DNA from: an uncultured Gemmatimonadales bacterium
GTDB taxonomy: Bacteria; Gemmatimonadota; Gemmatimonadetes; Gemmatimonadales; Gemmatimonadaceae
DNA length: 64,000 nt
Assembly (NCBI GenBank): GCA_963707505.1
Contig: CAVPQB010000003.1
Span: 256,001 to 320,000, forward strand
Direction: 5' to 3'
Of the stretch, positions 51,510 to 63,957 are shown in pieces. The notes beneath the pieces are model-generated. The model made no database searches and was not told the DNA's origin. It saw only the letters and a list, made by a program, of their open reading frames with translations. Within the stretch, counting starts at the first letter, position 1. Each line of letters opens with the position of its first letter. The translations under genes were made by a program, and so were the position numbers.

Positions 51510-53456
51510 CTAGCGGCCACCGCCGCGCAGCAGCTCGCGCACAAGGTCGAGCAGCGCGGCGGGTAGATGTTCCGGATTGCGTAGAATCGTGTGTCCCGCC
51601 GCACCGAACACTCGTGCGAGATACGGATCCGGATCGTTCGCGTCGATGGTCAGGCAGAACGGATAGATCCCGTCAGCGCGCGCCTCGAATATCGCCTGTC
51701 GCGAATCCTCGACCGCGTACGTGGTGAAGTATCGATCCACGTCGTTCGGCTTTCCATCCGACAGGATCAACAGCAGGCGATGACCAGCCGGTTGCGCGGC
51801 GAGCAGCGCCGTCGCGTGACGAATCGCGGCGCCGAGCCGGGTATTCCCGCCGGCCTCGATTCCGGCGATGCGCTGTCGAACCGTTTCGCTGTTCAATTCG
51901 CCGAACGCCTTCAATGTCGCGATGCGTACGTCGGGCGCGCCAACACCAGAAAAACTGAGAATCGAATAGGAATCGCCGAGCGCATCGAATGCCTCGCTCG
52001 CGATGAGCAGAGTCGTTTTCTCGATGTCGATAACACTGCGTCCGTCAGTAACGACGTCCCTTGTGGATGCGCTCACATCAAGGAGAACGGTGATCGCTAT
52101 CGCGCGTCGCGCAGCGCGAACCGACATGTACAACCGATCATCGGACGAACCACCGGCCGCCGCATCCGCGAGCGCGCGCACGCAGGCAGCAAGGTCGAGC
52201 TCATCGCCCTCCCGCTGCCGAAGCATGCGCTCTCGTCGCGCCCTGAGTCGCTCGAACTCGCGCCGCACTCGCCGCACCAGTGCCGGATGCTCGCCGAGCA
52301 CGCGATCGGCCCACGCGACATCCCCCTGCGCCGCGCGTTGCGTGTGTACTACGGCGCCGAGTTCGCGGTATGCTGCCGCGTTGCAATCCCACTCGGGGTA
52401 CAGGATCCCATCACCCGATCGCGACGCCTCGAATATCGCGGCGTCCGTAACATTCAGTGCGCCAGTACGTCTCGCGCTACCGCTGTCAGCATCGGGATCG
52501 GAATTGCCGCTCGCAGCCGCACCATCCGGAGCCATCGCATGATCGGGGTCATCCTGAGCTACAGAATTGTCCGGCAATTTGGCTGCATCGTCGCCGGTTG
52601 GTGTGAGCTCCTGAACCGTATCGTCAGCACCGGCCGCAGGGGCAGCGCTTTCTCCCGAACCGTAGCCTGGACTCGGTGGAACGAGCGACCCATACTGCGG
52701 GCCCCGGGTCGCCCCTGTCTCGGTGGCGTCGAGCGTCTGTCCCCATACTGCTATCGGTTCGAGCGGGCGATACTGACCGGTGAGCGACTCGACTGCACGC
52801 GTACGAGCGCGTGCCCACGCGAGTGAATCTTCGGGAGATGCGCCGGCGCGGACCTCTTCGGGAATTTCGGCCGGATCCGACTTCAGTACTGCCTGAACGA
52901 GCTGTTCGACTGCCTGCTCACGCGCACTCAGTCGGGAAAGATTGGGGCGCGCAGCAACGGCGCGCGCGCGTTCTTCCGCGATCAGCGATGCAACACCGGG
53001 CGCGCTGGTCGCAATCGATGCATCGATCTCTGCACCTTCACGCAGATTGTAGAGGTCTCGCGTGATCGCATTGTTGGCCGTCGGTGCGAGCGCGGCGCTT
53101 CGGCGCATGATGCGCACCGCCTGTTCGATCGCCAGCAACCGGTAACGCGCGACCGCGGCATCTGCGCCATCGGACGCGTCCATCGTGGCAGGTAACTTGA
53201 TCGACACTCCATCGTGTCGCGCCATCGGGCGTCGCCTTCCGACGTGAAACGTGTTTCGCGGAGTGTCATCCGCTACCGGCGCGATCTCGAATCGCACGCC
53301 ATAAGTTGCCGCGAGCAACAGCTCCAGCCGCCGCCGCACCGTGTCGAGCGCGATCTCGGGGTTCGTGCGCATCGCGCGCACCCAGCTTGCGGCACTCGCA
53401 ACGGGTCGTCCCAGCTTGCGAGACGACTTGATCATCAATGCGCGCATCCGATTCAC
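51510..53456 (-). CDS. norD: NorD/CbbO-like VWA-domain protein
   Basis: YPEWD, G.ELDL.A, MIDAS DVSAS, NTRLGAAIRHA, SDGKPND, PFCLTID. Confidence 0.85.
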   Translation of the reverse strand: MNRMRALMIKSSRKLGRPVASAASWVRAMRTNPEIALDTVRRRLELLLAATYGVRFEIAPVADDTPRNTFHVGRRRPMARHDGVSIKLPATMDASDGADAAVARYRLLAIEQAVRIMRRSAALAPTANNAITRDLYNLREGAEIDASIATSAPGVASLIAEERARAVAARPNLSRLSAREQAVEQLVQAVLKSDPAEIPEEVRAGASPEDSLAWARARTRAVESLTGQYRPLEPIAVWGQTLDATETGATRGPQYGSLVPPSPGYGSGESAAPAAGADDTVQELTPTGDDAAKLPDNSVAQDDPDHAMAPDGAAASGNSDPDADSGSARRTGALNVTDAAIFEASRSGDGILYPEWDCNAAAYRELGAVVHTQRAAQGDVAWADRVLGEHPALVRRVRREFERLRARRERMLRQREGDELDLAACVRALADAAAGGSSDDRLYMSVRAARRAIAITVLLDVSASTRDVVTDGRSVIDIEKTTLLIASEAFDALGDSYSILSFSGVGAPDVRIATLKAFGELNSETVRQRIAGIEAGGNTRLGAAIRHATALLAAQPAGHRLLLILSDGKPNDVDRYFTTYAVEDSRQAIFEARADGIYPFCLTIDANDPDPYLARVFGAAGHTILRNPEHLPAALLDLVRELLRGGGR

Positions 53457-53464
53457 AGTCGCAC

Positions 53465-54286
53465 CTACATCGTCGTGTCGATGATGTCGCCGATCGCGGA
53501 GAGCAGATCAGAGTCGTCCGTCAGCGCGGCGCCGATCGCAACCTGGCACGCACGTCCGCTCGGAATTCCCTCCGCAATCAATCGTCCCGCCGAAACGAGC
53601 AATCTCGTGCCAGGACCTTCCGCGAGTCCCTGATCGCGCAACCGGCGGACGCGATGCGCGACTTCGACCAGCGACGCTGCAACGGACGACTTCACGCCGC
53701 TCTCGTGCGCGATGATTCTTGCCTCGACCGCCGCTGCCGGATAACCGAAATCCAGCGAAACGAAGCGTTGCCGAGTGCTCGGCTTCAGGTCCTTGATCGC
53801 GTGCTGATAGCCCGGATTGTAGGACGCGACTAGTTGGAATCCGGGCGCCGCAACGATCATCTCGCCGGTCTTGTCGATCGGCAGAAGTTTACGATCGTCC
53901 GTGAGCGGATGAATCACGACGACCGTATCCTCGCGCGCCTCGACTACCTCATCGAGATAGCAGATCGCGCCGATTCTGGCGGCGACGGCGAGCGGTCCGT
54001 CCACCCACACCGTTTCTCCGCCGCGGATGAGGTACCGTCCGGTGAGATCGCTCGCCGAAAGGTCGTCGTGGCAGGCGACGGTTACGAGGGGGCGGTCCAA
54101 TCGCCACGCCATGTGCTCGACGAAGCGCGTCTTTCCGCACCCGGTTGGACCCTTGAGCAGCACGGGAAGACCGCGCCGGTGACACCGCTCGAATATCTCG
54201 ACCTCGTGGCCGACAGCCACGTAGTACGGTTCCGTACTCGGCGCGGCACTGGAGGGCGCGGCGACCGATGATTCAGAGATCGTCAT
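53465..54286 (-). CDS. norQ: CbbQ/NirQ/NorQ AAA+ ATPase
   Basis: LKGPTGCGKTRF, ACHDDL.ASDL.GRYL, YLDEVVEAR, SYNPGYQ, DLKPSTRQRF. Confidence 0.92.
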   Translation of the reverse strand: MTISESSVAAPSSAAPSTEPYYVAVGHEVEIFERCHRRGLPVLLKGPTGCGKTRFVEHMAWRLDRPLVTVACHDDLSASDLTGRYLIRGGETVWVDGPLAVAARIGAICYLDEVVEAREDTVVVIHPLTDDRKLLPIDKTGEMIVAAPGFQLVASYNPGYQHAIKDLKPSTRQRFVSLDFGYPAAAVEARIIAHESGVKSSVAASLVEVAHRVRRLRDQGLAEGPGTRLLVSAGRLIAEGIPSGRACQVAIGAALTDDSDLLSAIGDIIDTTM

Positions 54287-54373: not shown

Positions 54374-56236
54374 ATGTCCGAGCGAGCGCGCCGCCCTGCC
54401 GTAATCTTCGCGGAACGAGCCCATCTCGCAGTCGAGCGCACGTGGGCCGCGATCACGGCGTGGTTCAATGGCAAGGCGTTGAGCGAGAACGCAGTTCTGC
54501 TCATCTTCGCCGTCGTCACGGGGCTTCTGAGCGCACTCGGCGTCGTCGCGTTCTACAAGAGCATCGATCTCGCGTACTGGGTTTTCTACCGTCTCCCGAC
54601 GGCGGAATTCCCGCGCTTTGCGCTGCTCACGTATCGGCCCGTGATAACCGCGGCCGGTCTCGCCGTCGCGTGGTGGGTGATGCGCCACATCGGCCGCGGA
54701 CATGAAGGAATGAACGTCCCCGACGTGCAGCTTGCGGTCGTCCGGCGCGGCGGGCGACATCGAGCCCAGACCGGCGCTCGCGCGCACCGCCGCGAGCGCA
54801 ATCACTATCGGTTGCGGCGGCTCCGCCGGAAACGAGGGGCCGGTCGTCGTGCTCGGTGCGATGATCGGATCGTGGCTTGGACGCACCTTTCGCTTCGCCC
54901 CGTCGCGAGTCGTGGTGCTGGTCGGATGCGCGACGGGAGCCGCCATCAGCGCGGCATTCAATGCGCCACTTGCAGGCGCGTTCTTCGCGCTCGAAGAAGT
55001 CGTCGGCACGCTCGCCGCTGGATCGTTCGCTCCGGTAGTCGTCTCGAGCGTCGTCGCAGCCGTGGTATCGCGCTCCGTATTCGGAAACCACCCCGCGTTC
55101 GCGATTCCGCGGCAGTACGGATACGCGCATGCGAGCGAGCTGCTGCTGCTCTATCCGCTGCTCGGAGTCGTATGCGGACTGATCGCCGCGTTGTACGTAC
55201 GCACGTACTTTGGCGTCGGCGACCTTCAGAAGAAGATTCCACTTCCGCCCTCGCTCATCCCATGGGTCGGCGGTGCTCCGTTGGCATTCTCGTCTTCCTG
55301 TCCGGTGGCAGAATCGTTGGCTACGGACACCTCGCGATGCACGCCGACGTGTTCGGCCAGCTGGCATGGTATGCTCTGCTCGCGCTCGCGGTGGGGAAGA
55401 TCGTGGCCACGGCGATCACGCTCAACATGGGCGGATCGGGCGGAGTGTTCACGCCGTCGCTGTACATCGGTGCCGCGACCGGCGGCGCGTTCGGCGTGGC
55501 GCTGTCCGGAGCGTTTCCGGCCCTGGGGCTGCACCCCGAAGCGTACGCACTCGTCGGGATGGGCGCGCTCATCGCCGGCGCGACCGACGCTCCGATCACC
55601 GGAATACTGCTCGTATTCGAGATGACGAACGACTACGCGATAGTGATTCCGTTGATGTTGACCGTCGTCATCACGCACACCATCGCGCGCAGGCTCAGTG
55701 CCGACTCACTCTACAGCGGCTGGCTGCGCCGCCGCGGAGAGTCCATCGAGCAGGGCGCCGATCGAGACGTGCTCGCCGGCCTGCACGTGTCCGATGCGTA
55801 CGAATCGGCACCGCAGGTAATCTTCGAGGGCGCCGCTGTCGACGAGCTGCTCGCGCATCTGGGCAATACTCGCCAGCTGTACTTTCCGGTCGTTGACGAA
55901 TCGTACGGGCTCGTGGGCGTCATAACGGTCGCGGACCTGGGCCAGCTCGCGCGCGACGACGAGCATCTCGGCCCGCTGCTGGTAGCGAGCGACATCGCAC
56001 AGCCGTCAGAGACTGTTTCGCCGGGCGATTCGCTGCTCGAAGCCATTCGGAAGATGGGCATCCGCGGAGCAGAATCGATTCCGGTGGTGGACCGGCACAC
56101 GAGTCGCCTGCTCGGCATCATCAACCGAAGTCACGTGCTCAACCTCTACGAGCGCACCGTGTCATCCCTGCGCCGGCACGCGCATCAGCCCGCCAGCAGC
56201 GCCAACGCTTCGTCCGGCGGAATGTCGCCGAAGTAG
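54374..56236 (+). CDS. ClC chloride channel/transporter with CBS pair (two compensating frameshifts)
   Basis: GGSAGNEGP, AAFNAPLAG.FF.LEE (second frame), GSGGVFTP, APITG....EMT.DY, SLY, CBS domains. Confidence 0.9.
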   Translation: MSERARRPAVIFAERAHLAVERTWAAITAWFNGKALSENAVLLIFAVVTGLLSALGVVAFYKSIDLAYWVFYRLPTAEFPRFALLTYRPVITAAGLAVAWWVMRHIGRGHEGMNVPDVQLAVVRRGGRHRAQTGARAHRRERNHYRLRRLRRKRGAGRRARCDDRIVAWTHLSLRPVASRGAGRMRDGSRHQRGIQCATCRRVLRARRSRRHARRWIVRSGSRLERRRSRGIALRIRKPPRVRDSAAVRIRACERAAAALSAARSRMRTDRRVVRTHVLWRRRPSEEDSTSALAHPMGRRCSVGILVFLSGGRIVGYGHLAMHADVFGQLAWYALLALAVGKIVATAITLNMGGSGGVFTPSLYIGAATGGAFGVALSGAFPALGLHPEAYALVGMGALIAGATDAPITGILLVFEMTNDYAIVIPLMLTVVITHTIARRLSADSLYSGWLRRRGESIEQGADRDVLAGLHVSDAYESAPQVIFEGAAVDELLAHLGNTRQLYFPVVDESYGLVGVITVADLGQLARDDEHLGPLLVASDIAQPSETVSPGDSLLEAIRKMGIRGAESIPVVDRHTSRLLGIINRSHVLNLYERTVSSLRRHAHQPASSANASSGGMSPK

Positions 56237-57183
56237 TTGTCCAGATCCACACCAGATAGCGCGCCGGCGATCGACGCGTAGTCGTACGGAACACCGAGCA
56301 TCAACGCCTCCAGCTCGGTTACATCCTCCCGGCCCATGAAATCGCCGAAGATACGCGCCGCGGCGACACGTCCACCCTCGACGTTCACGCGTACATCGAT
56401 CTCTCCCGCCGTGAACCGGTGCGCACGCTGGACATTGCAGGGCGGGTTCTCCCCATAGTTCCAGTCCCACGATCCGTACTTCCGCTTTACGAGCGCATCC
56501 ACTTCAGCCCAGTCGGAATCGTCCAGCTCGAGCGTCGGGATCCTGCTTCGGTCACGCGTTCCGAAGATCCGCTCGATGATCAGCTCGCGCAGCTCCGTGA
56601 CGGTGATGGGCTCTTTGAGAAACTCACTTATGTTCACGACGCGGCTCCGGATCGACTTCACTCCTTTGGACTCGACCTTGCCAGGCTTCGGCACCAGTGC
56701 GGCGGTGACATCGTCGAGGTTCGAGTCGAACAGCAGCGTACCGTGACTGAACATCCGGTCCGGGCGCGCGAACTGCGCGTTTCCGGAAATCTTTCGGCCA
56801 CCGGCGAGAATGTCGTTTCGCCCGCCCAGCTCCGCTGGAACACCAAGATCGTGCAGCACGTCGATGACCGGACGAGTGAAAAGCTCGTATCGATTGAAGC
56901 GGCCGTGCACCGACGGTGTCATGAAGCTGAAGTTCAGGTTGCCGAGGTCGTGGTACACCGCCCCACCGCCTGAAATACGGCGCACGACTGTAATACCGCG
57001 CGCCGCGACGACCGACGGATTTACCTCCTCGATCGTATTCTGGTTCCGTCCGATGATGATGGACGGTGCGTTGATGTAGAACAGCAGGTAATCGTCGCTG
57101 CCCATCCGGTTGCGGAGCACGTGCTCCTCCAGTGCCAGATTGACACGAGCGTCGGTGATGTCACGATTATCGATGAACAGCAT
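56185..57183 (-). CDS. lplA: Lipoate-protein ligase A
   Basis: NLALEE, IIGRNQN, RRISGGGAVYHD.GN, GRND, KISGNAQ, HGTLL, KGVKSIRSRV, WNYG and the C-terminal domain. Confidence 0.93.
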   Translation of the reverse strand: MLFIDNRDITDARVNLALEEHVLRNRMGSDDYLLFYINAPSIIIGRNQNTIEEVNPSVVAARGITVVRRISGGGAVYHDLGNLNFSFMTPSVHGRFNRYELFTRPVIDVLHDLGVPAELGGRNDILAGGRKISGNAQFARPDRMFSHGTLLFDSNLDDVTAALVPKPGKVESKGVKSIRSRVVNISEFLKEPITVTELRELIIERIFGTRDRSRIPTLELDDSDWAEVDALVKRKYGSWDWNYGENPPCNVQRAHRFTAGEIDVRVNVEGGRVAAARIFGDFMGREDVTELEALMLGVPYDYASIAGALSGVDLDNYFGDIPPDEALALLAG

Positions 57184-58561
57184 CAAGTTGGTCGAAGAGG
57201 TCGAGCTTCATCAGCGTAGTTGATTCGGAGCACGCACCCTGAAACTCCGAAGTCGCAGCGAGCGCCGCCGGAATGCCCGAGCGTGCACTTTCCACGAAGC
57301 CCCAGCGTGCAAAATATTGCTCCGCGGAAGGCGTAAGAAGATAGATGCTACGAATCTTCATGCTCCGCGCATCTTCGATCGCCAGTGCGACGAGCCGCCG
57401 TGCCACGCCGTTCTTCCGATGCGCAGGGTGTACTCCCACCGAGCGAAGCAGCACAGCGTTCGAGTCAGCGAGCTCGAGCCCCGTCACGCCAATCACGGCG
57501 CCATCGTGCGTCGCAACGATGAAATTGCGCAGGTCTTCCGGAACACCGGCGATCGGCAGCCCGAGATTCGTGAGAAGACTCTCTACCGCAGGTCTGTCGC
57601 CCGCCTCTGCAGAGCGGTACACGATGCTTCTGGTCGACTTCGGTGTCATTGCAACTGGTGCCTCTTCATTTGTCCCGCAGCAGTCAGGGCCGCAGCACGC
57701 CCTGGTCTCCGCATCTGGCAGCGGCTTGGTCGCGCGTACGAATCCACTGAAGAATTTACCATCTATCTCGCGCGCAAACGACTCCGCATCCAGTCCGCTT
57801 CCCGCCAGAAACGCCATCGCATCGTCCGAGCTGTAAAATCGCGTCGGCTCGATGCTTGGCTCATCGAAACCAGAGTCGCGCAGCAGCGTCAGAAATTCCT
57901 GCTCATCGAGCGCACCGGCGACGCAACCGATCCAGAGCTCCATGTTCCGTCGCACAGCAGGTGGAACCTCGCCGCGGACCACGACGTCCGAGACGGCAAG
58001 TCGTCCGCCGGGCTTGAGCACACGATAGGCCTCGGCGAGCACACGCTTCTTGTCCGCAGAGAGGTTGATCACGCAGTTGGAGATGATGACGTCGACACTG
58101 TTGTCCGGGAGCGGGATCTGCTCGATCTCGCCTCGCAGAAACTCGACGTTGTCCGCGCCGGCCTTGCGCTTGTTCTCGTTCGCCAGCGCCAGCATCTCGT
58201 CGGTCATGTCGAGCCCGTAAGCCTTGCCGGTTGGTCCGACGCGCTTCGCCGAGAGCAGAACATCGATTCCACCGCCAGAGCCGAGGTCGAGCACTGTCTC
58301 GCCAGCGTTCAGCTGCGCCAGCGCTGTCGGATTTCCGCATCCAAGTGACGCGAGAAGCGCTTCCGTCGGAATCCCCGCGGTCTGTCCTTCGTCGTAGAGG
58401 TCGGACGTTATCGGATCCCATGCCTCGGTCGTCGATCCGCAGCACGCGCTCGAGCCGCAGCACGATCCCGACGTGTTGCCGGCCGCCACTCGCGACGCGG
58501 CGGCGCCGTACTTCTCCCGGACGCTCGCCCTGAGCAGCTCGCGATCAGTCACCGTTTCCAT
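57167..58561 (-). CDS. arsM: Arsenite S-adenosylmethionine methyltransferase fused to an ArsN2-like GNAT domain
   Basis: SCCG..ACCG, SLGCGNP, LDLGSGGG, SNCVINL, WIGCVAGA, CCGPDCC, then LLRSVGV..R..G, YLLT..AE.YF..GF, SEF...C. Confidence 0.9.
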   Translation of the reverse strand: METVTDRELLRASVREKYGAAASRVAAGNTSGSCCGSSACCGSTTEAWDPITSDLYDEGQTAGIPTEALLASLGCGNPTALAQLNAGETVLDLGSGGGIDVLLSAKRVGPTGKAYGLDMTDEMLALANENKRKAGADNVEFLRGEIEQIPLPDNSVDVIISNCVINLSADKKRVLAEAYRVLKPGGRLAVSDVVVRGEVPPAVRRNMELWIGCVAGALDEQEFLTLLRDSGFDEPSIEPTRFYSSDDAMAFLAGSGLDAESFAREIDGKFFSGFVRATKPLPDAETRACCGPDCCGTNEEAPVAMTPKSTRSIVYRSAEAGDRPAVESLLTNLGLPIAGVPEDLRNFIVATHDGAVIGVTGLELADSNAVLLRSVGVHPAHRKNGVARRLVALAIEDARSMKIRSIYLLTPSAEQYFARWGFVESARSGIPAALAATSEFQGACSESTTLMKLDLFDQLDAVHR

Positions 58562-58575
58562 GTGTACATCCTCAT

Positions 58576-58591
58576 ATCAAAAAATGTTGAT
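58576..58591. promoter_or_regulatory. ArsR operator 2 (between arsR and arsM)
   Basis: ATCAA-AAAATG-TTGAT. Confidence 0.75.
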
Positions 58592-58608
58592 GGATTGGTC
58601 AAAAAAAA

Positions 58609-58959
58609 TCAGTCACAGCACTCATTTTGTCGGCCACTGGCCGCGACCCGAACGGAGGGGCGCCGCCCGCGTGGGCGAAGCTCGCGGACCATCTCTTCAG
58701 CCTCCTCGAATGCTTCACGGTTCAGCTCGTAGTACGACCAGCGTCCATCACGCCGGTCGTTCACGATGCCGGCATCCTTGAGCACCTTGAGATGGAACGA
58801 CAGCCGCGACTGCGCCGCGTCGAGAGTGTCCTGCAACTCGCAAACGCAGCGCTCACCGCCCACCAGCAGCTCGACTATGCCGATGCGCGTCTCGTCCGAA
58901 AGCGCGTGGAATATTTGCGCTGCGCGAGCGCTGAAGTGCTGAGGGGCCTGAGCTGGCAT
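58609..58959 (-). CDS. arsR: ArsR/SmtB family arsenic-responsive repressor
   Basis: FHALSDETR, ERCVCEL, QSRLSFHLKVLKDAG, GRW.YY, C-terminal CC. Confidence 0.93.
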   Translation of the reverse strand: MPAQAPQHFSARAAQIFHALSDETRIGIVELLVGGERCVCELQDTLDAAQSRLSFHLKVLKDAGIVNDRRDGRWSYYELNREAFEEAEEMVRELRPRGRRPSVRVAASGRQNECCD

Positions 58960-58965
58960 GACATT

Positions 58966-58993
58966 AACGTATCAACATTTATTGATATGTCAA
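58966..58993 (-). promoter_or_regulatory. arsR promoter with ArsR operator 1 in the spacer
   Basis: TTGACA-N16-TACGTT; operator ATCAA-CATTTA-TTGAT at 58971-58986. Confidence 0.78.
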
Positions 58994-59891: not shown

Positions 59892-62800
59892 CTACGCCGT
59901 CGAATTCATCGCGTCATTCGTGGCAATCGCACCATCCACTGCGTCAGCAGCTGGAAATCCGCGCTGCAGCGTAAGTGTGAAGACCGATCCGATTCCTACA
60001 TTGCTCTCCACAGTAACGTCGCCACCCATTGCGTGGGCGAGTGATCGACTGATCGCGAGACCGAGCCCGACGCCTTCCGCACTGCGCGTAAGCGATGTAT
60101 CGACCTGGACGAATGGCTCGAAGATCGCCGTCAGTTGAGCGCTGGGAACCCCAACGCCAGTATCACCCACGTGTATCGCCACCAAATCATCGGTCACATC
60201 ACAGGTCACTTCGACGCTGCCGCCTGCCTTCGTGAACTTGAGTGCGTTGCTCAACAGGTTGAGAAGAATCTGACGTATCTTGTCAGCGTCCCCGCGCACC
60301 ATGAGCCTCTGACCATCGATGCCATTCGGCCGGCACACCTCGTAGCGCAGTCCGGCGCGCTCCATCTGCAGCGCCATCATCTCTCGAACACCCAGTAGCG
60401 ATTCGCTGACGTCCACGTCGCTATGTGCGAGGGAGACCGCACCGGCCTCGAGCTTGGCATAGTTCAGGATCTCATTGATCAGCCCCATGAGATGTTCCTG
60501 ACTGCGCGTGATCCGGACGAGATCGGCGTGTTGCGCCGTCGTCACGGGCCCGCGAATACCCATGTCGATGAGCTGCGCGTACCCAGCAATCGCATTGAGC
60601 GGAGTTCGCAGCTCGTGGCTCATGGTGGCGAGGAAGTCAGCTTTCGCGCGGTTGCTCGCCAGTGCCTCGATCGTTTTTCCGCGCAGCTCGACGCTGGTCG
60701 CTTCCAACTCGTCGGCTCTGGCCACGAGCTCGGCGTTGACGCGTGTCAACTGCACGCCGGCGGTCTTGCGCTCGGTGATGTCCTCGATGGCCATGAGGAT
60801 CAGTGGCGGCCCGTTGTCCTGCGAGCCGATGCGCCGTGCATTCAGCAGCATCGTTCGTTGACCACGGGTCGCGAATTCGTGCTCGACTTCGACGTCATCG
60901 AATGGCTCGCCGGTACGAAGCACGCGCTCCAGCAGAATTCGAAGACTCGGGATGTTCCACTCACCACCCGCGAACTCGAACAGACTGCGCGTCGTCGTGT
61001 CGCCGGCAGAGACACCAAAGCTATCATAGAAAGCATGGTTCGCGCTGACGACGCAGAGGTTCCCGTCCAGCACGAGCAACGGCTCGCGCACCGTCTGCAC
61101 TATCGCCTCGGCGAACCTTCGTGCGTCGTCCAGTTGCTCGGCTGCGCGCTTGCGGGCATCTATGTCGTGGTAGACGATGACGGCTCCGTCGATCTTGTTA
61201 TCCAGAGTGCGATACGGACGGATGTGCATCATGTACCAGTGACCTGTGCGATCGCGCACTTCACGCTCCGTCACCTCCAGAGTGTCGATCACGTGGCTGA
61301 TGAGCGTTTCGATGTTTCCGACATCTATGTTCGATCTCAGGTCACCGATGGGGCGCCCGATGTCCGTCTGAATGACGTTCATCATGCGCTCGGCTCCCGC
61401 GGTAAATCGCCGGATGTGCAGATCAGTTCCAACCATGATCACGGGGACGTGCATCGCACTCAGGAGGTTCTTGAGATCGTCGTTGAGATGATCAGCTTCC
61501 GTATTCCGGCCGCGCAACTCGTCATTGAGCGTGATCAGCTCTTCGTTGAGCGATTGAAGCTCCTCCTTCGAGGTTTCGATCTCTTCGTTCGTACTCTGGA
61601 GCTCTTCGTTGCTGGACTGGATCTGCTCATTGGCCGCCTGGAAATCCTCAACGACTGACGCATGCTCGTCAGCCACGCTCTGGAGGTGCCGCTTCGCGGC
61701 CTCGAGTTCCTGGCGCAGCTCACCGAGCTCAGTTGCGTTGTCCTCCAATTTCCGTTCTGCGATACTGGCGCGGCGGCCGCGCCTGGCGCCACTGCCCTTG
61801 TTCGTCGCGGGGGGCTGCCCACCGGCATCATCGGCCGATGGACGCGTTCCGTCCGCACGACTTTCCTCAAACGAGATGATGAAGAACTTTGCATCGGATC
61901 CCGTGACTCGAAACGGTCGCACGTCGAGGCTGACGTGTTCGACGTGCTTTCCTTGGTGGAACGACACACCCTCGACGCGCGCCGGTCGTGCTTCGTTTCG
62001 AGCGATCTCCAGCACCATGCGCAGCTCGGTGGCCAATTCGGACTTCACCATGTTCAGCAACTGAAAGCTCGCGGTGCCAGCGGCCGGCTCGATGTACCTC
62101 CCCGTGCGACCCCGGAACTGCAGGATTCGCAATTGATCGTCCACCACGACTGCGGCTGGCGCATAGCTCCCGAGCACGATCTGATCTGCGGCGCGCTGTA
62201 TGTCCGGAGACGGGGCAGCTGCGGATGAGCCGGCCGGATCTTCCACGTTCTGTGATCGCCTGATACCGGCGGCGGTCGCGCTGGCGCGATCCTGAATCAA
62301 TGATCGGGTCGGATGTGCCGGACGAACGGCCAGGTGCAATGGCTGCACTGGGCCGGGGCTGCGTGTGTACACGCGCAGCTTCTTGTCGATCGCAGTAAAC
62401 AGTGTCGGAGCAGTGCTCACCGATTCCGACGTTCCGAGCACGAGTATGCCGCCGGGCCGGAGCGCGTAATGGAAGACCGACAGCAGTCTGGTGTGTGCGT
62501 TCGGCTGCAGATAGATGAGAACGTTACGGCAGCTGACGATGTCCAGGTGAGAGAACGGCGGATCCGCGGTTATGTTCTGGACCGCGAAAACACAGCAATC
62601 CCGCACAGCCTTCGTGACGCAATAGCCAGTATCTTCCTTCCTGAAGAAGCGACTCAGCCGCTCTGGCGTGACATCCGCCTCGATGCCTCGTGTATACATC
62701 CCCGTGCGCGCGGCGGTGATCGCGGCCGCATTCAGGTCGGTTGCAAAAATCTGGATCGGGGTGTCGAGCGAATGGGCTTCCAGCAGCTCGAGAAGACAGA

Positions 62801-63957
62801 TGGCAAACGAATATGCTTCCTCGCCGGTTGAACATCCCGCTATCCACACACGTATTGGAGGGTCATCGCGAATGGAATCCGCCCGCGTACGTTTGTCCTC
62901 TGCCATTCGCCGCGCCATGAAGTCCGGTAGGACTGTACCCGACAGCGCGTTGAACAAGTCCGGATCGCGGAAAAACCGTGTTACTCCGATGAGGAGATCG
63001 TTGTACAACGTGCTCAACTCCTCGCCATCCTTGCGTAGCAGCTCCGCGTAGCGTCCGACGGTGTCGATCCTGCGAAGAGCCATGCGTCGCTGAATTCGTC
63101 GCTCGACCGTCCCCATCTTGTACAGGTCGAAATCGACACCGAATTGACTCTTGAGATCCGCGCAAATGCTCGCCAAGGCGTCGCTATTCGTACCGGTGTC
63201 CGCGCCGCTACGGGACACGCTGCGGTCGTGGGGTTGGGTGTCCAGTTCGTGATTTGTTTCAGCCGCGTGATCCAGTGAGCCGTCGCCGGAATGCGGACGT
63301 AAGTATGGATTGCGTCCCAGTCGCGCGATGTGGGTCGCGATCTCTGCCGGCGCGCGCAATGATGTCGATACACGCTGTTGCGATTGCCGATCGCGGCATC
63401 CCCTCGGCGGTTGCCGTTGCGGGATCCTGCGCAAACGCGATCCCGCCCGCGCCTCGTATTGCGCGAACACCGAGCGCACCATCGGAGCCCGTGCCAGAAA
63501 GGATCACGCCGATGGTCCTGCTTTCCTGCACTTCAGCGAGCGAGCGGAAGAATGCGTCGATCGGCAATGGGGGGCGGTCGTCCGGATCTCTCGGCACCAA
63601 CTTCAGATGGCCGTCCGTGAACGTCATCTTGGTATCCGGCGCGATCACGTACGCGTGATTGGCTTCGACACGATCGCCGTTCGCCGCCTGATGTACCGGC
63701 ATCGTCGCTTGCCGCGCGAGCAATTCAGCCAGGATGCTTCCGTGCGTCGGACTGAGGTGCTGTACCACTACATACGCAAGCGCGGTATCTGCTGGAACGT
63801 TCCGAAAAAACTCGGACAGGGCTTCGAGGCCGCCCGCGGACGCACCAATACCGACGACCGTTACGGGCGAACTGCGCACTGATTCACGCTCGGTCGATTC
63901 AGTCGATGCCGATTCGGTCGTGTCCGCCGACGGAATCGGCACCCCGTCAGAAACCAT
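59892..63957 (-). CDS. CheB-CheR-PAS-histidine kinase fusion (frameshift near 63355)
   Basis: CheB GASAGG/QHL/GTGSDG; CheR IGVTRFFRD, GCSTGEEAYS, SCRNVLIY; SNEELQSTNEE coiled coil; PAS; SHELRTPL, NLLSNALKFT, DTGVG, GLGL. Confidence 0.92.

What the first reader, a model, noticed from the sequence alone, without database searches (positions are those of the whole stretch)
56185..58993. Lipoate-protein ligase translationally coupled to an ArsR-controlled arsenic operon
Seen: lplA starts 17 nt inside the end of arsM::arsN2 on the same strand, with no intergenic promoter space, downstream of two ArsR operators. Known: trivalent arsenicals, especially the methylarsenite made by ArsM, bind the dihydrolipoamide dithiol and inhibit 2-oxoacid dehydrogenases. 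Inference: arsenic-induced LplA may re-lipoylate or buffer poisoned complexes. I do not know this as a described ars function.
Basis: partly seen in the sequence, partly recalled or inferred. Interest (0 to 1): 0.72.

Follow-up and report, generated by a model that had tools for sequence, protein, structure and literature searches.

The report
Arsenic operon captured a neighbouring ligase
In one small branch of a bacterial genus, a gene for an ordinary lipoic-acid salvage enzyme sits directly behind an arsenic-resistance operon, likely because a deletion removed the terminator, small gene and promoter that separate them in relatives, so it is probably an accidental passenger rather than a new arsenic defence.

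Summary
The layout is real: arsR, an arsM::arsN2 fusion and lplA lie on one strand, with two ATCAA-N6-TTGAT operators and a 17-nt arsN2/lplA overlap. Relatives show how it arose. lplA occurs in 18 of 22 genomes of the genus, mostly tail-to-tail with clc. It abuts arsN2 in only 4 of the 18 plus one metagenome contig, all one clade (100/99). Sister lineages keep about 650 bp between the two: a hairpin, a pepSY gene and a conserved promoter-like box for lplA, without an ArsR operator. The overlap looks accidental: the stop that defines it pre-exists in 10 of 13 uncoupled lplA genes, and one coupled member has a 3-nt gap. LplA is a standard ligase with unchanged dN/dS; the genome has LipB/LipA, and no dedicated lipoyl carrier was found. 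No ars genes flank 76 further lplA loci. This scan earlier noted arsenic-linked lipoyl-carrier modules in anaerobes and archaea; I confirmed such loci in Bacillota, but they are a separate system. Verdict: operon capture by deletion, likely arsenic-inducible as a by-product; adaptive role about 15%.

The parts
58970..58993 (-). Promoter-operator 1: TTGACA hexamer (58993-58988) followed by an ATCAA-N6-TTGAT palindrome, predicted ArsR operator
   Evidence: Sequence; found with 0-1 mismatch before arsR in G003, G005, G009, G015, G016, G018
58609..58959 (-). arsR, ArsR/SmtB repressor, 116 aa, with a CVCEL motif and a C-terminal CC pair; predicted As(III) sensor
   Evidence: NF033788 100 bits over cut-off 55, PF01022; motifs read, their meaning recalled
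58576..58602 (-). Promoter-operator 2 before arsM: TTGACC hexamer (58602-58597) and ATCAA-N6-TTGAT (58576-58591)
   Evidence: Sequence; exact copies before arsM in relatives
57167..58561 (-). arsM::arsN2 fusion, 464 aa: arsenite methyltransferase fused to a GNAT acetyltransferase; last 5 residues are read from lplA's first codons in another frame
   Evidence: NF008823 and NF040501 over cut-off; fused in G015, G016, G014 and L171, separate genes in G009, G018, G020, G012 and in 12 of 14 metagenome loci checked, L171 fused and L176 unresolved
57338..57343 (-). TATCTT hexamer inside arsN2 (Tyr407-Leu408 codons), 160 nt before the lplA start; candidate internal -10 box, unproven
   Evidence: Present in 5 of 5 coupled loci and identical to the box upstream of uncoupled lplA genes
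57167..57183 (-). 17-nt arsN2/lplA overlap; inferred deletion junction lies just upstream
   Evidence: 3-nt gap instead in L171; about 650 bp with hairpin, pepSY and promoter-like box in G009 and G018
56185..57183 (-). lplA, two-domain lipoate-protein ligase, 332 aa, Bacillus/Listeria-like type, motifs RRISGGGAVYHD and KISGNAQ intact
   Evidence: TIGR00545 over cut-off, PF21948 + PF10437; best solved relative 8cri, E 1.7e-103; dN/dS 0.026-0.056
54374..56236 (+). clc chloride channel with CBS domain, convergent on lplA with a 52-nt tail-to-tail overlap; lplA's long-standing neighbour
   Evidence: PF00654 + PF00571 on the G016 orthologue; beside lplA in 14 of 17 relatives' loci

Best explanation
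lplA here is an ordinary lipoate-salvage ligase gene that lies directly behind arsR-arsM::arsN2, likely because a deletion of about 650 bp in the ancestor of one subclade removed the hairpin, the pepSY gene and lplA's own promoter-like box, so it is now likely read from the ars promoters as a passenger. Shown: gene identities, the single coupled clade, the intervening segment in sister lineages, purifying selection on lplA. Inferred: the order of events (pepSY|lplA-clc first, ars cassette arriving upstream, deletion, then loss of the arsN2 stop so that its frame runs to a stop already present in lplA), read-through transcription, and induction by As(III) through ArsR. Predicted consequence: lplA has a basal level from leaky ars promoters and rises with arsenite, goes on attaching scavenged lipoate to apo E2 and GcvH domains, and adds little or nothing to arsenic tolerance because LipB/LipA already supply lipoylation.
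For: 18 of 22 genus genomes have lplA and 21 of 22 an arsM match, but only 4 of the 18 have them abutting. With L171 these form one clade, 100/99. A divergent pepSY|lplA pair is in 8 of the 14 uncoupled genomes, including G002 and G017 outside the ars-adjacent group. G003, G005, G009, G018 and L174 have ars genes, then a hairpin region, then pepSY, then lplA. TATCTT lies 46-50 nt before lplA in 8 of 11 uncoupled genomes examined, a variant in 2, none in 1, and is missing at that place in 5 of 5 coupled loci. No exact ArsR operator within 230 nt upstream of lplA in 17 of 17 genomes; best is one mismatch in G021. The overlap-defining stop exists in 10 of 13 uncoupled genes; L171 has TAA plus a 3-nt gap. 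lplA also lies close behind non-arsenic genes on its own strand in G008 (histidine kinase end, about 50 bp) and G012 (cupin, 27 bp). dN/dS is 0.026-0.056 in 10 coupled pairs and 0.023-0.052 in most uncoupled pairs; only 1 of 332 columns is clade-specific. lipA and lipB pass cut-off. No ars hit beside 76 of 76 further lplA loci; lplA beside 2 of 80 metagenome arsM loci, both close relatives of this genus.
Against: The coupled state has persisted over synonymous divergence up to 0.7, so it is at least tolerated, and selection for it cannot be excluded. Two genomes of another family (G278, G208, one genus) also have ars genes within 6 kb of lplA, though on the opposite strand with genes between. 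Anaerobic Bacillota have ligases inside ars loci, one directly before arsM in an arsR-lpdA-DGC-GcvH run. A TATCTT hexamer inside arsN2 may give lplA its own promoter, in which case it is not ArsR-driven. Expression was not measured. Only 38 of the 80 arsM loci had 1.5 kb or more downstream, and the tblastn probes came from this genome, so distant ars genes could be missed.
Confidence: 0.6

Rival explanations
1. Same deletion history, but lplA is not under ArsR: a new internal promoter inside arsN2 (TATCTT, 160 nt upstream) would drive it constitutively, and the ars operon is only a neighbour.
For: TAT-CTT is kept in 5 of 5 coupled loci although it is 3% of Tyr-Leu codon pairs in this genome, and it equals the box of uncoupled lplA genes. 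Only 9 of 36 A/T-ending codons of arsN2 are kept across four coupled sequences. lplA stays under purifying selection, which needs expression without arsenic.
Against: No -35 or extended -10 element accompanies it, the consensus scan did not list it, it was picked after the fact, one uncoupled arsN2 (L184) has the same codons, and no terminator-like site lies between arsM and it on the minus strand, so read-through would still occur.
Confidence: 0.22
2. One reading: the junction was selected because arsenic-induced LplA protects lipoyl enzymes, for example by loading new apo E2/GcvH domains from scavenged lipoate when As(III) or ArsM-made MAs(III) poisons lipoyl dithiols or the Fe-S enzyme LipA.
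For: As(III) blocks pyruvate dehydrogenase through lipoate (PMC7072575, passages); ArsM makes the more toxic MAs(III) (PMC6138428, passages). Junction kept in 5 loci. Ligases occur in 3 of 9 selected DGC/GcvH regions of Bacillota, 7 of which hold arsM or acr3. A second lineage has ars genes near lplA.
Against: One origin only; no ArsR operator before lplA where it has its own promoter; no change in selection or sequence; no DGC match in 22 of 22 genus genomes and one GcvH, in the glycine cleavage cluster. The usual gene after arsN2 is a metallophosphoesterase (9 of 14 other metagenome loci with an arsN2 hit). LplA needs a free lysine and free lipoate, so it cannot swap out an arsenic-bound lipoyl group (recalled biochemistry).
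Confidence: 0.15
3. Assembly artefact: this genome has many frameshifts, so the fusion and overlap could be sequencing errors.
For: clc and the CheB/CheR gene are frameshifted in this window but intact in relatives.
Against: G015 (99% complete) and G016 (98%) have the same 464-aa fusion and overlap; G014 has the same junction.
Confidence: 0.02

Closest known systems
arsR-arsM(-arsN2) arsenic operons (ArsM: PMC6138428; ArsN2 clade: PMC6465285; passages read)
   Same: ArsR-type repressor, operator palindromes, ArsM and ArsN2 over NCBIfam cut-offs; acr3 plus metallophosphoesterase at a second site with two copies of the same operator.
   Different: arsM and arsN2 are fused, and lplA follows instead of a terminator or the metallophosphoesterase; both traits were seen only in this clade.
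LplA-type lipoate salvage ligases (TIGR00545; E. coli LplA, Bacillus LplJ/Listeria type)
   Same: Over cut-off, both domains, catalytic motifs intact, about 55% identity to Bacillaceae ligases, best solved match 8cri.
   Different: Only the regulatory context. Patchy in the phylum: 21 of 401 genomes at E <= 1e-40.
sHdrR/SoxR-controlled lip-lpl(AB) genes of the sHdr-LbpA sulfur oxidation system (PMC12423496, passages)
   Same: A lipoate ligase gene within a region controlled by ArsR-type repressors.
   Different: There the sensor responds to sulfane sulfur and the ligase serves the dedicated carrier LbpA. Here LplAB scores 81 against cut-off 550, BigR 50 against 155, and no such carrier or shdr genes lie at the locus.
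Arsenic-linked DGC/GcvH lipoyl-carrier module of anaerobes
   Same: A TIGR00545 ligase inside or beside ArsR/ArsM/Acr3 loci.
   Different: Has its own GcvH-like carrier, DGC proteins, and in some loci lpdA or lipA. Its ligases are 33-35% identical to this one and fall on a separate branch. No DGC match in this genus.

Membership tests
ars operon (arsR-arsM-arsN2) | ArsR/SmtB repressor with As(III)-type cysteines | tested here: met
   NF033788 over cut-off; CVCEL and terminal CC in the sequence; the meaning of the motifs is recalled
ars operon (arsR-arsM-arsN2) | Operator palindrome overlapping the promoter, conserved in relatives | tested here: met
ars operon (arsR-arsM-arsN2) | ArsM and ArsN2 family scores over curated cut-off | tested here: met
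   358/263 and 128/125 bits; ArsN2 passes narrowly
ars operon (arsR-arsM-arsN2) | Induction by As(III), reaching lplA | not testable with these tools
   Needs transcript data or an experiment
lplA as a conserved ars-operon gene | Repeated, independent co-transcriptional linkage to ars genes | tested here: not met
   One clade; 0 of 76 and 0 of 17 other lplA loci coupled, 2 of the 17 near but convergent; 0 of 5 plasmid loci opened
lplA as a conserved ars-operon gene | ArsR operator kept before lplA where it is separately transcribed | tested here: not met
   No exact site in 17 of 17; one 1-mismatch site in G021
Selected translational coupling | Conserved stop/start overlap created or kept by selection | tested here: not met
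   Stop pre-exists in 10 of 13 uncoupled genes; 3-nt gap in L171; -17 is a rare spacing. Coupling as a by-product remains possible
LplA lipoate-protein ligase (TIGR00545) | Catalytic plus C-terminal domain, conserved motifs | tested here: met
LplA lipoate-protein ligase (TIGR00545) | ATP-dependent lipoylation of apo domains | not testable with these tools
   Enzyme assay needed
Arsenic-linked DGC/GcvH lipoyl module | Dedicated GcvH-like carrier and DGC proteins in the ars locus | tested here: not met
   0 of 22 genomes with PF08859; single GcvH in the gcv cluster; G000 is 83% complete
sHdr-LbpA sLpl(AB) system | LplAB-type ligase and sulfane-sulfur ArsR-type sensor | tested here: not met
   NF053751 81/550, NF040642 50/155

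The most novel reading that the evidence does not exclude
A young operon caught in the act: one deletion put a housekeeping lipoate ligase under ArsR, and it was kept because arsenic-induced lipoate salvage protects 2-oxoacid dehydrogenases from As(III) and self-made methylarsenite. This would be a carrier-free solution convergent with the lipoyl-carrier modules found in ars loci of anaerobes, and would make lipoylation an inducible arm of arsenic resistance.
Probability: 0.15. Interest if true: 0.7.

Novelty: new variant of a known kind. Interest (0 to 1): 0.27.

Why it matters
As read here it is a tidy, small example of how operons gain passengers: relatives preserve each step, and a gene overlap that looks designed is explained by a stop that was already there. 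It warns against reading function from one overlap. It also offers a natural with/without comparison for an old question, whether bacteria defend the lipoyl target of arsenic directly. The stronger lead on that question is the separate arsR-lpdA-DGC-GcvH-lplA-arsM type of locus in anaerobic Bacillota, not this one.

Tried and rejected
RNA evidence: no RNA holder listed; this says nothing on expression, and no reads were laid. The one promoter-like site of the consensus scan (57195-57166) would start transcription inside lplA and matched the chance level (0.8 expected), so rejected. Literature: no paper held lipoate-protein ligase + arsenite + ars operon or lplA + arsenic + arsR + lipoate; searches listed none on this linkage by title or abstract start; the library lacks most subscription papers and no supplements were read. 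Relocated pepSY: a 67% identical paralogue lies at C6:590 kb in another context; not resolved whether it is the lost gene. Arsenic-specific changes in LplA: none; the single Cys249 is shared with uncoupled genomes. Plasmid-borne ligases: 118 records matched, 60 listed, 5 opened, none beside annotated ars genes. Earlier findings by sequence and by place in this genome: nothing. Assembly artefact: rejected. No fold or complex prediction was run, since identity of the proteins was not in doubt.
Full report
Observation. The minus strand carries arsR (58959-58609), a 464-aa arsM::arsN2 frame (58561-57167) and lplA (57183-56185). All pass their NCBIfam cut-offs, ArsN2 narrowly. The overlap is 17 nt. 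Two ATCAA-N6-TTGAT palindromes follow TTGAC(A/C) hexamers before arsR and arsM. The motif occurs 17 times in the genome against 1.7 expected, including twice before an acr3-metallophosphoesterase pair on contig C4. The closest named ligases (87-96% identity) are titled Gemmatimonadaceae or Gemmatimonadetes, so the organism is likely of that family.

Distribution in the genus. lplA orthologues are in 18 of 22 genomes and an arsM match in 21 of 22. I fetched the lplA surroundings of all 17 relatives. In 14 of 17, lplA is tail-to-tail with clc. Upstream differs. G014, G015 and G016 have the same junction as the window. G003, G005, G009 and G018 have arsR-arsM(-arsN2), then pepSY on the other strand, then lplA; G013 probably too, across two contigs that both end in pepSY. 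G002 and G017 have pepSY|lplA with nrdJ upstream and no ars genes. G020 and G021 have nrdJ upstream without ars genes; G008, G010, G006 and G012 have other genes. G019 has pepSY|lplA and an arsR-arsM-acr3 locus that reaches a contig end, so its linkage is open. Metagenome contigs add one coupled locus (L171) and two of the pepSY type (L173, L174).

Direction of change. On an lplA DNA tree of 19 rows the five coupled loci are one clade (100/99), inside a weaker group (83/88) whose other members mostly have ars genes next to pepSY. The pepSY|lplA pair also occurs outside that group, so it is the older state. In G009 and G018 the stretch from the arsN2 stop to the lplA start is about 650 bp. It holds a hairpin region (five such regions fold at -31 to -69 kcal/mol over 86-156 nt, no shuffle control), pepSY and a TATCTT box 46-50 nt before lplA, present in 8 of 11 uncoupled genomes examined, with variants in 2; some have TTCGAC 17 nt ahead of it. 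This segment is absent from the coupled clade. No exact ArsR operator lies within 230 nt before lplA in 17 genomes examined (G006 not included). The simplest history, inferred: pepSY|lplA-clc first, an ars cassette settling upstream, one deletion joining arsN2 to lplA.

The overlap. The stop that ends ArsN2 is formed by lplA's Asp5-Asn6 codons read in another frame, and is present in 10 of 13 uncoupled genes with no frame to end. L171, in the same clade, ends ArsN2 at KLDLFN with TAA and a 3-nt gap; the window has CAA at the matching place. The overlap therefore needs only the loss of one stop. Re-initiation across it is possible but not shown, and no Shine-Dalgarno sequence is evident before lplA in coupled or uncoupled genomes.

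The ligase. It is a standard two-domain LplA, best solved relative 8cri. dN/dS is 0.026-0.056 among 10 coupled pairs. Among 21 uncoupled pairs it is 0.023-0.052 in 15; 4 were saturated, one near-saturated (0.004) and one near-identical (0.216). One of 332 columns is clade-specific and no cysteine is gained. So the gene is still used after losing its promoter box, either by read-through or from a new internal promoter; a TATCTT in arsN2 is a weak candidate. The genome has lipA and lipB in the PDH cluster, three E2-type lipoyl domains among six PF00364 matches and one GcvH in the gcv cluster. No DGC match was found in 22 genomes.

Beyond the genus. Of 80 GTDB lplA loci, 4 were close relatives beside clc; none of the other 76 (further Gemmatimonadota, Chloroflexota, Bacillaceae, Bacteroidota, Balneolota; flanks up to 6 kb, some shorter) had a hit to this genome's ArsR, ArsM, ArsN2, Acr3 or phosphoesterase. 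Of 17 lplA loci from other genera of the phylum, partly overlapping that set, 2 had ars genes within 6 kb, both from one genus, convergent, with other genes between and no exact operator. This counts against my reading only weakly, but it is a second proximity. Of 80 metagenome arsM loci, 2 had lplA; 38 had 1.5 kb or more downstream.

A related but separate system. Earlier notes of this scan described lipoyl-carrier modules in ars loci of anaerobes and archaea. I tested this in Bacillota: 42 of 301 genomes have a DGC match. I picked 9 regions with clustered DGC hits, not a random sample. All 9 have a GcvH-like domain, 8 an ArsR-type gene, 7 arsM or acr3, 3 a ligase. L292 reads arsR, lpdA, DGC and GcvH-type genes, lplA, arsM on one strand. 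Those ligases are 33-35% identical to the window's and branch apart, on long branches. This makes an arsenic-lipoate link credible in general and lifts the adaptive reading here to about 15%, but the window has none of the module's other parts.

Literature. Lipoate as the As(III) target in PDH: PMC7072575, passages. ArsM makes the more toxic MAs(III): PMC6138428, passages. ArsN2 is a defined clade in ars operons, not studied in that paper: PMC6465285, passages. ArsR-type control of a lipoate ligase in sulfur oxidation: PMC12423496, passages. Searches returned no paper joining lplA to ars operons; 32, 33, 44, 51 and 70 were seen as listings only. Supplements were not read, and gene tables there could hold such cases. 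That LplA needs an apo domain and free lipoate is recalled.

Unpublished genomes. G017 enters the genus counts, the pepSY and promoter-box tallies and the tree; G007 enters the arsM count and one operon layout. The conclusions stand without them.

Verdict. Real layout, single recent origin, most likely accidental capture with by-product induction. New variant of an ars operon, interest 0.27.

Noticed in passing
L292:6010-12804 (G684:C7); also L289, L290, L293, L295, L296, L297: Anaerobic Bacillota loci join ArsR, ArsM or Acr3 with DGC proteins and a GcvH-like lipoyl carrier. L292 reads arsR, lpdA, DGC/GcvH genes, lplA and a 550-aa ArsM with an N-terminal extension; L296 also has lipA. A far stronger candidate for lipoate-based arsenic handling than the window.
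   Followed up: partly
window 57167-58561: The ArsM::ArsN2 fusion was seen only in the coupled clade; its ArsN2 half is only 42-44% identical to ArsN2 of G009/G018 while ArsM is about 80% and LplA 89%, so it evolved fast or was replaced.
   Followed up: partly
G000:C4:625424-627721: Second arsenic locus without arsR: 106-aa unknown protein, acr3 and a metallophosphoesterase behind two copies of the operator; likely regulated in trans. The phosphoesterase is the usual gene after arsN2 in relatives and has no assigned arsenic function that I checked.
   Followed up: partly
window 54374-56236 and 59892-63957: clc has its middle part in another frame (two compensating shifts) and the CheB/CheR kinase is split; both are intact in G015, so probably sequencing errors of this assembly.
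   Followed up: partly
window 56185-56236: lplA and clc overlap tail-to-tail by 52 nt, and the same overlap is kept in 14 relatives.
   Followed up: no
window 51510-54286: A CbbQ/NorQ-type AAA ATPase and a VWA partner lie beyond clc with no obvious client enzyme nearby; present in some relatives, absent in others.
   Followed up: no
G000:C3:486545-487762: lpdA and lipB share one open frame here and in G003 (706 aa) but are separate in G015 and G016.
   Followed up: partly
L149, L150 (G278, G208): In one genus of another family lplA lies within 6 kb of acr3/phosphoesterase or arsM, on the opposite strand.
   Followed up: partly
G000 genome, 17 sites: The ATCAA-N6-TTGAT motif also precedes a copper ATPase/CsoR-like pair and lies near or inside unrelated genes, so other regulators may share it.
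   Followed up: no
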